In this document: positions 44,514 through 45,559 of the stretch, piece by piece
Layout: every line of letters starts with the position of its first letter
Position numbering within the stretch: position 1 is the stretch's first letter
From: Escherichia phage EF202P1
Sequence record: OP172796.1
Length of the DNA: 64,000 nt
Reading direction: 5' to 3' (one strand)
The notes under the pieces: generated by a model
The model's database searches: none
What the model saw: the letters and a program-made list of their open reading frames with translations, nothing else
Told to the model about the DNA's origin: nothing
Position numbers and translations under genes: made by a program

Positions 44514-44954
44514 TTAGAAAGGCTTTCTACGTTGCTTGTTAATATTAGCTTTCATAGCAGCTAAGTGGTTTTGCTGTTCAATCAGTCGTGAACGTTCTTG
44601 ATGACTAAGTGCCATAGTGTTCACATTCTCAATCGCTTGAGTGGCTTGCTTTAAAGCACGACCAATCTTACCAGACATTTTGCGTTTTGCAATAGTTGCT
44701 TGATGCTTAGGTTCAACCACACGATAACCAACACCCATTGAAGCAACCAGATAAATCTTCTCTTCTTTAAGAAGCTTCTCAATAAACTTCTCAAGTCGGT
44801 TTAGACGTGTAAGTGCATAAGCCTTCATTTCATCTTCGTACTTAACAATGTCACCTTGATAAGTTGGCTTCACAATACCTAAGAAGGTATCCATCTCAGA
44901 ATGTGATACAGTGTCACCGTAACTAAACTTTGCTGCTAATGCTTTTGTATTCAT
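44514..44954 (-). CDS. hypothetical protein (146 aa)
   Basis: ORF flanked by repeat regions R1/R2. Confidence 0.6.
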   Translation of the reverse strand: MNTKALAAKFSYGDTVSHSEMDTFLGIVKPTYQGDIVKYEDEMKAYALTRLNRLEKFIEKLLKEEKIYLVASMGVGYRVVEPKHQATIAKRKMSGKIGRALKQATQAIENVNTMALSHQERSRLIEQQNHLAAMKANINKQRRKPF

Positions 44955-44956
44955 AA

Positions 44957-45559
44957 TTAAACGTTACCTTCTGAAATAACTTCTACAGAAAAACGACCAA
45001 AGCGTGGACGCCAATCACCTACACCACAAAGGTTACCAGCATTTTCCAGAACCATCAGAAGTTCCTCTTTGGTGATTTGCTCTTCATCGAACATCAAACC
45101 AAACTCTACAGACCAGTCACGGAAGATTGGACGGTAGCTCATAACTCGTGCTGTACCAATCTTAACAGACTTAGCATAGATAAAGTCTGGATTCTTAGCA
45201 AGTTCTTGTGGGTTTGCTGGACAGTTCTTGATAGTCATTGGGAAGACTACATCTGTCAGCATAATGGCTCGGTCAATCACCTTACCAAGTTTGTTGAGTT
45301 TTGCACCAGACTTGATACAAGCCTCAATCATCTCACCGTTCATAACAAAACCTAACTGCTCATCGTAGTAACAAGAAGTTACCAGTTGGCTTTCTGCTAA
45401 GAGCGCATAGTCTTCGTCAGTCTTTTTACGTTTACTGGACAGAGACTTGTGATATTTTGTCAGAGGATTTAATGGGTCTGACAGCGTATCAGCGTGGCTC
45501 AGGAAAGGACGAGTACCAGTGATTTTGATATTTAACAGTTTCATAGCATCTAGCTCCAC
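44957..45559 (-). CDS. hypothetical protein (200 aa)
   Basis: ORF flanked by repeat regions R1/R2. Confidence 0.6.

What the first reader, a model, noticed from the sequence alone, without database searches (positions are those of the whole stretch)
44514..45559. Two-gene cassette of unknown function bracketed by the structured repeats
The 200-aa and 146-aa products have no motif I recognise (no HUH, integrase or nuclease signature). They are translationally adjacent, have their own minus-strand terminator (44476-44502) and sit between R1 and R2 within a block of DNA-metabolism genes, a typical layout for an accessory or anti-defence module.
Basis: inference. Interest (0 to 1): 0.5.

Follow-up and report, generated by a model that had tools for sequence, protein, structure and literature searches.

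The report
Phage VIPR RNA-guided silencing system
The two "unknown" genes and the repeats around them are a VIPR system, a recently described phage RNA-guided DNA-silencing machine related to CRISPR, and in this phage all five guide RNAs point at a parasitic satellite element found in E. coli chromosomes.

Summary
The larger gene (true start ATG 45544, 195 aa rather than 200) is 193/195 identical to the solved SUSP1 Vipr protein (PDB 36pp). Vipr is the RAMP/Cas7-like effector of type II VIPR systems, described in 2026 bioRxiv preprints. The 146-aa gene is the accessory gene vap1.

The flanking "structured repeats" are five vrRNA guide genes, two upstream and three downstream, all on the minus strand. 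Each has 10-15 GGY/NN pentamers followed by a pseudoknot tail supported by covariation.

Under the published one-nucleotide-skip rule, all five guides match an ~11-kb satellite family in E. coli chromosomes at 79-91% of guide positions. Permuted guides and other skip lengths give only background. Nothing in the 64-kb window reaches 75%. Blind pattern scans of public collections land on the same satellite family.

It is an anti-satellite weapon, not an anti-defence one.

Novelty: already known. One side observation may be new: about half of related phage records lack vipr/vap1 but keep intact guide genes.

The parts
45920..45947 (-). sigma-70-like promoter (TTGACA-16-TATACT) just downstream of the ligase gene. 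It is the likely start of the vrRNA A-vrRNA B-vipr-vap1 transcript.
   Evidence: 11 of 12 consensus positions. The same sequence is conserved in the vipr-less relatives BPS15S6 and BPS17L1 ahead of their vrRNAs. Its function is inferred.
45851..45889 (-). Leader hairpin (CATCACTTAA...TTAAGTGATG) preceding vrRNA A. The same element separates vrRNA C from vrRNA D (44323-44359).
   Evidence: Inverted repeat I4; sequences. Its role (processing or termination signal) was not determined.
45755..45852 (-). vrRNA A. It has 11 guide dinucleotides in a degenerate tract (guide 45847-45798), a pseudoknot tail (45797-45760) and a T-run.
   Evidence: The guide matches the satellite at 20/22 positions at L012:8475 in a 236-aa gene of unknown function.
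45621..45724 (-). vrRNA B, the cleanest guide. It has 14 NN dinucleotides, 13 of them preceded by a strict GGY unit (guide 45719-45655), and a pseudoknot tail (45654-45621). Its position corresponds to SUSP1 vrRNA1, immediately upstream of vipr.
   Evidence: Ten consecutive units match the 3' part of the satellite baseplate gene perfectly (22/28 overall). A blind scan of 185,579 species genomes gave 3 hits, 2 of them in satellites.
44957..45544 (-). vipr: a 195-aa RAMP (Cas7-like) protein that polymerises on the vrRNA, one protomer per pentamer.
   Evidence: 193/195 identical to PDB 36pp_D 'SUSP1 Vipr protein', E 8.5e-129. AlphaFold model pLDDT 95.8. Best Foldseek PDB hits are Csm3/Cas7 subunits, prob 1.00. 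Published RNA- and DNA-contact residues H17, K33, E71, M72, R138, C173, D177, W178 and R179 are all present (paper section).
44514..44954 (-). vap1: a 146-aa Vipr-accessory protein. It has an N-terminal winged-helix-like domain (about residues 19-80, with an invariant G76-Y77 motif) and a C-terminal helical hairpin (82-143).
44478..44502 (-). Intrinsic-terminator-like hairpin plus T-run after vap1.
44360..44449 (-). vrRNA C: 11 guide dinucleotides and a pseudoknot tail (44394-44360).
   Evidence: Matches 20/22 positions about 30 nt upstream of the satellite small serine recombinase gene (L009:6227, L012:3505).
44205..44322 (-). vrRNA D: 15 guide dinucleotides, in phase through one degenerate unit (ATTCG), a pseudoknot tail (44247-44210) and a T-run.
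   Evidence: Matches 26/30 positions inside the satellite large serine recombinase (integrase) gene (L015:12420).
44077..44175 (-). vrRNA E: 13 guide dinucleotides and a pseudoknot tail (44110-44077).
   Evidence: Matches 23/26 positions in a 128-aa satellite gene with a weak HTH (L011:6634, L016:6332, L020:2991). The only exact hit to its 10-unit core in IMG/VR is a satellite contig.
44030..44076 (-). 19-bp-arm hairpin followed by a T-run. It is the likely terminator of the downstream vrRNA array and overlaps the promoter-like site of the next gene.
   Evidence: Inverted repeat I2, promoter-like site 44057-44029, sequence. Function inferred.

Best explanation
The locus 44030-45947 (minus strand) is a complete type II VIPR (Viral Interference Programmable Repeat) system of a Felixounavirus-like phage. 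It comprises vipr, vap1 and five vrRNA guide genes.

Mechanism, shown experimentally for the 99%-identical SUSP1 system in the cited preprints:
- Vipr protomers polymerise along the GGY/NN tract of a vrRNA, one protomer per 5-nt unit.
- The protomers sequester each GGY and expose each NN dinucleotide.
- The filament binds double-stranded DNA in which the NN dinucleotides are read with one skipped base between them (xNN).
- It forms a gapped R-loop/triplex and blocks transcription without cutting the DNA.
- Vap1 enhances the effect. It is a predicted DNA-binding protein.

Inferred here for this phage: its five guides direct silencing of an ~11-kb satellite element integrated in E. coli chromosomes. 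The predicted targets are the satellite's large serine recombinase, the region upstream of its small serine recombinase, the satellite-specific 3' part of its baseplate gene, and two small genes. The satellite carries a tape-measure gene and a near-copy of the phage's baseplate gene, so it presumably parasitises this phage.
For: Identity of the protein:
- 193/195 identical to PDB 36pp 'SUSP1 Vipr protein'.
- RAMP fold: model pLDDT 95.8, with Csm3/Cas7 as the top structural matches.
- All but one of the published contact residues are present (paper sections). The exception is position 175, discussed under evidence against.

Guide genes:
- Five same-strand GGY/NN tracts, found only beside the cassette, versus 0 in shuffles.
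- The coding genes are about 98% identical across 117 phages, but the arrays are at most 88% identical, with GGY conserved and NN variable.
- The H-type pseudoknot tail has 93.9% of cells paired and 9 of 11 pairs with compensatory changes, against at most 38% when the partners are slid.

Targets:
- Best matches are A 20/22, B 22/28, C 20/22, D 26/30 and E 23/26, all inside satellites.
- Only the 1-nt skip rule gives these matches. Skips of 0, 2 or 3 give background.
- Among 200 guides with permuted NN order, the observed score was reached 0 times for A, C and E and once for B.
- No site in the window reaches 75%.
- Blind exact-pattern scans converge on the same satellite family.
- The skipped base falls on the codon wobble position for 3 of the 4 coding targets.
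- Guide B's target lies in the C-terminal segment where the satellite baseplate protein diverges from the phage's own copy.

Family context: distant Vipr homologues (41-49% identity) are all flanked by GGY/NN arrays and followed by a Vap1-like gene.

Published experiments are cited from bioRxiv 10.64898/2026.04.26.720920 and 10.64898/2026.04.26.720927.
Against: - Nothing was measured for this phage. Expression and boundaries of the five vrRNAs are inferred.
- SUSP1 has 1 vrRNA upstream and 3 downstream. This phage has 2 and 3.
- Guides A, C and E have many degenerate GGY units (for example AGT, TGT, TGC, GCT), so some may load Vipr poorly.
- Matches are 79-91%, not perfect, in the few satellites I could fetch, and mismatches cluster at the 3'-most units.
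- Guide B's skipped base is not at the wobble position.
- Only 64 kb of the roughly 88-kb genome could be checked for self-targets.
- How the vrRNAs downstream of the vap1 terminator are transcribed or processed is unknown.
- Vap1's DNA-binding fold is supported only by weak structural matches.
- The paper's text names T175 as a contact residue, but both this protein and the PDB chain have V175. This is probably a slip in the text.
Confidence: 0.93

Rival explanations
1. Anti-defence or accessory module aimed at host immunity. On this view the two proteins inhibit a bacterial defence system and the repeats are incidental.
For: The module is dispensable among relatives. It lies in an early/DNA-metabolism block.
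Against: - 99% identity to a characterised RNA-guided DNA-binding effector.
- The repeats have guide-RNA architecture and decode to satellite targets, not host defence genes.
- No PADLOC or Pfam match.
Confidence: 0.03
2. A partly decayed VIPR locus. The proteins are intact, but several guides (A, C, E, with only 5-7 strict GGY units) no longer function, so the system works through one or two guides or not at all.
For: Strict GGY counts are 5/14, 7/13 and 5/12 for A, C and E, against 13/16 for B. The paper notes that internal degeneracy of vrRNAs is frequent (methods passage). The cassette has been lost outright in many relatives.
Against: - The degenerate guides still match satellites far above background (A 20/22, C 20/22, E 23/26). 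That is not expected after long neutral decay.
- Tails and promoter are intact.
- Vipr is 100% identical to that of several other phages.
Confidence: 0.12
3. The guides' true natural targets are other phages, prophages or the host chromosome, and the satellite matches are a by-product of my having looked mainly at satellites.
For: My mismatch-tolerant scan covered only 11 satellite loci plus their chromosomal flanks (about 160-190 kb), not the whole E. coli pangenome. In the paper, 2 of 20 SUSP1-clade guides with targets did not map to the satellite.
Against: - Two blind exact-pattern scans (596 Gb of species genomes, and IMG/VR) returned satellites as 3 of 4 hits. The fourth is what chance predicts: about 1 hit is expected for 20 specified bases in 596 Gb read on both strands, by my arithmetic.
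- All best hits fell inside the satellite part of the loci, never in the flanking chromosome (with annotation tables).
Confidence: 0.05

Closest known systems
Type II VIPR system of Escherichia phage SUSP1 (bioRxiv 10.64898/2026.04.26.720920 and 10.64898/2026.04.26.720927; PDB 36pp)
   Same: - Vipr is 193/195 identical.
- Same vap1 gene and same gene order, between DNA ligase and the same downstream gene.
- Same vrRNA design: YNNGG units followed by a pseudoknot tail, with three of the four tail types shared letter for letter with other clade members.
- Same satellite target family and same one-nucleotide-skip code.

   Different: - This phage has five vrRNA modules (2 upstream, 3 downstream) where SUSP1 has four (1 and 3).
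- Every guide sequence differs. The arrays have no counterpart above 88% identity in 50,697 phage records.
- Several guides are more degenerate.
Cas7/Csm3 backbone subunits of class 1 CRISPR-Cas effector complexes
   Same: - RAMP fold with RRM core, glycine-rich loop and thumb. Foldseek prob 1.00, TM about 0.5 to Csm3 and type VII Cas7.
- Helical polymer on a guide RNA with periodic base flipping (paper).
   Different: - About 10-15% sequence identity.
- 5-nt rather than 6-nt RNA periodicity.
- A gapped 2-of-3 code on the DNA.
- No CRISPR repeat-spacer array, no adaptation genes, no nuclease partner. None of these is present in this locus.
- The guides are individually encoded genes.
Phage-encoded CRISPR-Cas directed at a satellite (Vibrio phage ICP1 type I-F against PLE). 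Recalled from my own knowledge, not tested here.
   Same: A lytic phage carries an RNA-guided system whose guides target a chromosomal satellite that parasitises it.
   Different: ICP1 uses a canonical CRISPR-Cas system that degrades the target and acquires spacers. VIPR silences by binding, and no adaptation machinery is evident.

Membership tests
VIPR system, type II (SUSP1 clade) | Vipr protein: a minimal RAMP with RRM core, G-loop and thumb | tested here: met
   99% identity to the solved SUSP1 Vipr. Model pLDDT 95.8, with Csm3/Cas7 as top folds. G-loop [12 protein letters not shown] and contact residues conserved.
VIPR system, type II (SUSP1 clade) | vrRNAs: 9-16 tandem YNNGG units on the vipr strand in the flanking intergenic DNA | tested here: met
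   Five tracts of 10-15 units, on the minus strand only and only beside the cassette, versus 0 in 50 shuffles.
VIPR system, type II (SUSP1 clade) | GGY conserved while NN is hypervariable among close relatives | tested here: met
   Eight related phage loci show the same frame and tails with different NN. Coding DNA is about 98% identical and arrays at most 88%.
VIPR system, type II (SUSP1 clade) | Invariable 3' tail that folds into a pseudoknot | tested here: met
   11 pairs, 93.9% of cells paired, 9 pairs with changes on both sides, slid controls at most 38%. Caveats: there are only four tail types, and I derived the structure from these same sequences.
VIPR system, type II (SUSP1 clade) | Adjacent vap1 accessory gene encoding a predicted DNA-binding protein | tested here: inconclusive
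VIPR system, type II (SUSP1 clade) | Guides decode to natural targets under the 1-nt skip rule, with no self-targets | tested here: met
   (79-91% NN match, other skip lengths at background, permuted controls), with blind scans. No site in the 64-kb window reaches 75%. The rest of the genome is not available.
VIPR system, type II (SUSP1 clade) | vrRNAs are expressed, bind Vipr and repress transcription | not testable with these tools
   Shown for SUSP1 by sRNA-seq, pull-down, GFP and plaque assays (paper). Not measured for this phage.
CRISPR-Cas system | Repeat-spacer array with identical direct repeats, plus cas genes beyond a single RAMP | tested here: not met
   No CRISPR-type array was found. 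The repeats are 5-nt GGY/NN units. There are no other cas-like genes in the locus and no PADLOC hit.

The most novel reading that the evidence does not exclude
Recombination between the near-identical tail-plus-spacer repeats of vrRNA A and vrRNA D could remove the vipr-vap1 cassette. About half of related phage records appear to have lost the cassette in this way while keeping promoter-driven, intact vrRNA genes, and at least one such orphan guide still matches a satellite at 19/20 positions.

The novel reading is that these orphan guides are maintained by selection. They might work with Vipr supplied in trans by a co-infecting phage. They might instead act as decoys that soak up a competitor's Vipr. 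On this reading they are not recent debris.
Probability: 0.2. Interest if true: 0.6.

Novelty: already known. Interest (0 to 1): 0.3.

Why it matters
VIPR is a newly described mode of RNA-guided DNA recognition, with a gapped, non-contiguous code, carried by a RAMP proposed to predate CRISPR. Recognising it here gives a function to two genes still annotated as 'hypothetical protein' in the related phage records examined here. It also gives a function to repeats annotated only as 'repeat_region'.

For this phage it yields a concrete, testable target list in a satellite found in hundreds of E. coli genomes. It also shows how one guide tells the satellite's stolen baseplate gene from the phage's own copy.

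The system itself is published, so the discovery value of the finding is low. The orphan-guide observation is the only part that may go beyond the preprints.

Tried and rejected
- Pfam gave nothing for the larger protein and only a sub-threshold HpHbR hit for the smaller one (E 0.023, 14.8 bits against a cut-off of 27). Rejected as noise.
- PHROGs placed both proteins in 'unknown function' families.
- PADLOC gave no hit.
- Rfam at E up to 1 gave no hit over 43900-46000.
- The weak adenylate kinase, pertactin and L41 matches in the PDB sequence search were rejected (E above 0.2).
- blastn of the vrRNA array against 5,426 complete E. coli genomes found nothing. I found the satellites instead through the phage baseplate gene.
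- The Gastranaerophilales hit to the guide B core has no similarity to satellites. It is what chance predicts for 20 specified bases in 596 Gb.
- The single satellite-borne vrRNA I found (L020) had no target above background in the window or in the fetched satellites.
- I considered a Cas6-like repeat-processing role for the protein. I dropped it in favour of the experimentally shown filament-forming role.
- I considered that vrRNA D was two short guides. The target match runs in phase through the degenerate ATTCG unit, so it is one guide.

Full report
**1. What is in the sequence**

The window is a Felixounavirus-like phage. Window 43500-47200 matches 259 phage records at 80-99% identity, mostly Escherichia and Salmonella members of the Ounavirinae.

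On the minus strand, downstream of DNA ligase (45954-47090), there are two tightly packed ORFs:
- The first is listed as 200 aa from GTG 45559. It almost certainly starts at ATG 45544 (195 aa). A GGAG lies 9 nt upstream of that ATG. All annotated homologues are 588 nt. The solved homologue begins at the same methionine.
- The second is 146 aa (44954-44514) and starts 2 nt after the first stops.
- A hairpin plus T-run follows at 44502-44478.

**2. Identity of the larger protein**

Pfam and PADLOC give nothing, and PHROGs gives only an 'unknown function' family. A large-database search nevertheless finds 520 homologues of very constant length (~190 aa), in phages, prophages and metagenomes from Proteobacteria to Actinobacteria. 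They share an invariant C-terminal G.G..R....G.F signature.

A search of PDB sequences gives one decisive hit, 36pp 'SUSP1 Vipr protein'. The E-value is 8.5e-129 and 193 of 195 residues are identical.

Two 2026 bioRxiv preprints describe this protein. Their account is as follows:
- Vipr is a minimal RAMP related to Cas5/6/7.
- It is encoded mainly by phages, next to an accessory gene (vap).
- It is flanked by genes for ~100-nt vrRNAs built from 9-16 YNNGG units and a structured 3' tail.
- Vipr polymerises on the RNA, one protomer per unit. It hides each GGY and presents each NN.
- It represses transcription. No nuclease is involved in type II systems.

My own structure prediction (pLDDT 95.8) independently retrieves Csm3/Cas7 subunits as best folds (Foldseek prob 1.00, TM about 0.5). 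The published contact residues H17, K33, E71, M72, R138, C173, D177, W178 and R179 are all present. The paper's 'T175' is V175 in both this protein and the PDB chain, so it is probably a slip in the text.

**3. The repeats are the guide genes**

A scan for period-5 GGY/NN tracts finds them only on the minus strand and only in the two intergenic regions that bracket the cassette. Shuffled sequence gives none.

Laid out in register, there are five modules:
- A: 45852-45755
- B: 45724-45621
- C: 44449-44360
- D: 44322-44205
- E: 44175-44077

A and B are upstream of vipr. C, D and E are downstream of vap1. Each module is 90-118 nt long and has 10-15 units followed by a 34-38-nt tail.

The tails come in four sequence types of identical length. 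Across nine phages they support an H-type pseudoknot, with stem 1 at columns 3-6/17-20 and stem 2 at columns 9-15/28-34:
- 93.9% of cells are paired.
- 9 of 11 pairs have changes on both sides.
- Pairing is at most 38% when partners are slid by 1-3 columns.
- Caveat: there are effectively four independent tail types, and I derived the structure from them.

Comparison with eight related phages shows the same frame and tails but different NN dinucleotides. The two coding genes are about 98% identical in 117 phages. The arrays find nothing better than 88% (upstream) or 84% (downstream) in 50,697 phage records. SUSP1 has 1+3 modules, while this phage and several of the relatives examined have 2+3. 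Rfam has no family for these RNAs.

**4. The smaller protein is Vap1**

It occupies the position of vap1 in the SUSP1 operon. Alone it finds only close relatives.

The gene immediately downstream of distant vipr homologues (41-49% identity) encodes a 166-182-aa protein that aligns with it, including an invariant GY (GYRVV) motif. A profile built from these finds 91 family members. Several lie on the same contigs as Vipr hits or carry consecutive locus tags.

This agrees with the paper's 'predicted DNA-binding protein' and adds nothing stronger. The paper reports that vap1 co-expression enhances phage restriction.

**5. What this phage's guides target**

The paper reports that most SUSP1-clade guides hit a satellite whose baseplate protein is 72% identical to the phage's.

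Finding the satellite:
- A blastn of window 29600-33560 against complete E. coli genomes finds a 'phage baseplate protein' gene in 474 of 5,426 genomes. 234 of these match at 90% nucleotide identity or more.
- The gene sits in an ~11-kb element inserted at several chromosomal sites (between yciI and tonB, in a DUF72 gene near yecN, in mdtG, and between ymdF and wrbA).
- The element encodes a large and often a small serine recombinase, a tape measure protein, the baseplate protein, an HNH endonuclease or a methyltransferase, and small unknown proteins.

I converted each guide to the published query form (GGY replaced by N) and scanned eight fetched satellites plus their chromosomal flanks (162 kb) with mismatches allowed. 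A rescan added three further satellite loci and the full-length guide D. Best matches:

| Guide | Match | Site | Target |
|---|---|---|---|
| A | 20/22 | L012:8475 | 236-aa gene of unknown function |
| B | 22/28, ten consecutive units perfect | L014:11581 | baseplate gene |
| C | 20/22 | L009:6227, L012:3505 | ~30 nt upstream of the small recombinase gene |
| D | 26/30, in phase through its degenerate ATTCG unit | L015:12420 | large serine recombinase gene |
| E | 23/26 | L011:6634 and others | 128-aa gene with a weak HTH |

Controls:
- Skip lengths of 0, 2 or 3 give only background scores (15-19).
- Among 200 guides with permuted NN order, the observed score was reached 0 times for A, C and E, once for B, and once for the first nine units of D. 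The full-length D match has no permutation control.
- All best hits lie inside the satellite part of the loci.
- No site in the 64-kb window reaches 75%.
- Mismatches cluster in the last one to three units. The final 'AT' before the tail is nearly invariant in all phages, so it is probably part of the tail rather than the guide.
- The skipped base falls on the codon wobble position for A, D and E but not for B.

Two blind tests support the result:
- The exact 10-unit core of guide B gives three hits in 185,579 species genomes. Two are satellites of this family, in Citrobacter and Shigella. One is an unrelated MAG, which is what chance predicts: about 1 hit for 20 specified bases in 596 Gb, by my arithmetic.
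- The core of guide E gives a single hit in IMG/VR, a satellite contig.

Guide B also shows how self is spared. The satellite and phage baseplate proteins are almost identical over about 175 residues (phage residues 8-182, satellite 6-180). They diverge in the last ~75, and the target lies in that divergent segment.

**6. How it most likely works here**

Shown for SUSP1: vrRNA-Vipr filaments bind xNN-coded DNA and repress transcription, and Vap1 enhances this.

Inferred here:
- A strong sigma-70-like promoter at 45947-45920 drives a leader hairpin, vrRNA A, vrRNA B, vipr and vap1.
- The pseudoknot-plus-T-run ends of A and D, the vap1 terminator, and a final hairpin at 44076-44030 punctuate the transcripts.
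- On infection of a satellite-bearing cell, the five ribonucleoproteins sit on the satellite's recombinase genes, on its baseplate gene, and on two small genes. This would block its excision and/or its exploitation of the phage.

Not resolved: how vrRNAs C-E are expressed past the vap1 terminator. It is also open what the conserved spacer elements do (AAAGGTCTTTAAACAGGGTCTTTTAAT and the CATCACTTAA...TTAAGTGATG hairpin). The preprint text does not address biogenesis.

**7. Relatives with and without the cassette**

Distant vipr loci from a soil metagenome phage, a skin-metagenome phage and a Rhodococcus prophage all carry same-strand GGY/NN arrays.

The reverse does occur:
- 230 phage records match this phage's downstream vrRNA array, but only 117 Ounavirinae-clade records encode Vipr by tblastn.
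- Salmonella phages BPS15S6 and BPS17L1 have, at the same site and behind the same promoter, two and one intact vrRNA modules but no cassette.
- The complete 87,609-bp BPS15S6 genome has no Vipr or Vap1 homologue by tblastn (E up to 10) or by profile search.
- One of its guides matches a satellite methyltransferase gene at 19/20 positions, against a permuted maximum of 18.
- The BPS15S6 arrangement is what recombination between the 97%-identical 60-nt direct repeats at 45801-45742 and 44251-44192 would leave. These repeats are the tail plus spacer of vrRNAs A and D.

My keyword searches of the preprint text did not find this described.

**8. Verdict**

The finding is a textbook instance of a system published in 2026.

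- Novelty: already known.
- New here: the guide repertoire, which is new at the array level; the target list for this phage; the self/non-self logic at the baseplate gene; and the orphan-guide observation.
- Confidence in the identification: 0.93.
- Interest: 0.3.

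Noticed in passing
L026:686-1105 (Salmonella phage BPS15S6), L027:686-967 (BPS17L1), compared with window 44030-45947: Related Felixounaviruses lack vipr and vap1 entirely but keep two or one intact, promoter-preceded vrRNA genes at the same site. There is no homologue anywhere in the complete BPS15S6 genome. One orphan guide matches a satellite gene at 19/20 positions. By record counts, about 113 of 230 phage records that match the vrRNA array have no Vipr.
   Followed up: partly
window 45742-45801 and 44192-44251: The tail-plus-spacer segments of vrRNA A and vrRNA D are 60-nt direct repeats, 97% identical, bracketing vrRNA B, vipr, vap1 and vrRNA C. Recombination between them would produce exactly the cassette-less architecture seen in BPS15S6.
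   Followed up: partly
window 30410-31207; L009:5000-16400 and L010-L016: An ~11-kb satellite family in E. coli chromosomes (474 of 5,426 complete genomes have a match, 234 at 90% or more). It carries serine recombinases, a tape measure gene, and a baseplate gene whose first ~180 codons are nearly identical to the phage's while the last ~75 are diverged. It inserts at several different chromosomal sites.
   Followed up: partly
L020:450-514 (minus strand), IMG/VR contig IMGVR_UViG_2579779076_000012: One satellite carries its own stand-alone vrRNA gene. It has a sigma-70-like promoter, a tail identical to the phage's vrRNA B-type tail, and its own terminator. No GGY/NN tract other than this one was detected in the fetched 11-kb locus; vipr itself was not searched for. 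No target was found in the window or in the other fetched satellites.
   Followed up: partly
L024:5112-5653 and L022:3610-3909: In actinobacterial and skin-phage VIPR loci the vrRNA tails contain a tRNA T-arm-like GGTTCGA(T/C)TCC. ARAGORN calls two 'tRNA-???' genes overlapping the arrays in L024. This suggests tRNA-like 3' ends that could recruit tRNA-processing enzymes.
   Followed up: partly
L022/L023:3507-3911; window 44192-44323: Gene callers and ORF lists place spurious ORFs on vrRNA arrays: a 134-aa 'gene' in the metagenomic contigs and a 43-aa ORF in the window. Several phage records mark the same DNA only as 'repeat_region' or 'DR_4'.
   Followed up: no
window 44030-44076: A 19-bp-arm hairpin with a T-run ends the downstream vrRNA array. 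It overlaps the promoter-like site (TTGACA-17-TATTTT) of the next gene, so terminator and promoter share sequence.
   Followed up: no
Vipr residue 175 (window 45020-45022): The structural preprint lists T175 among residues shaping the pyrimidine pocket. Both this protein and the deposited PDB chain have valine at 175.
   Followed up: no
GU169904.1 'Staphylococcus phage SA1', positions 90239-92378: The best database match to the downstream vrRNA array (84%) is in a record labelled as a Staphylococcus phage. That record evidently contains Felix O1-like sequence.
   Followed up: no
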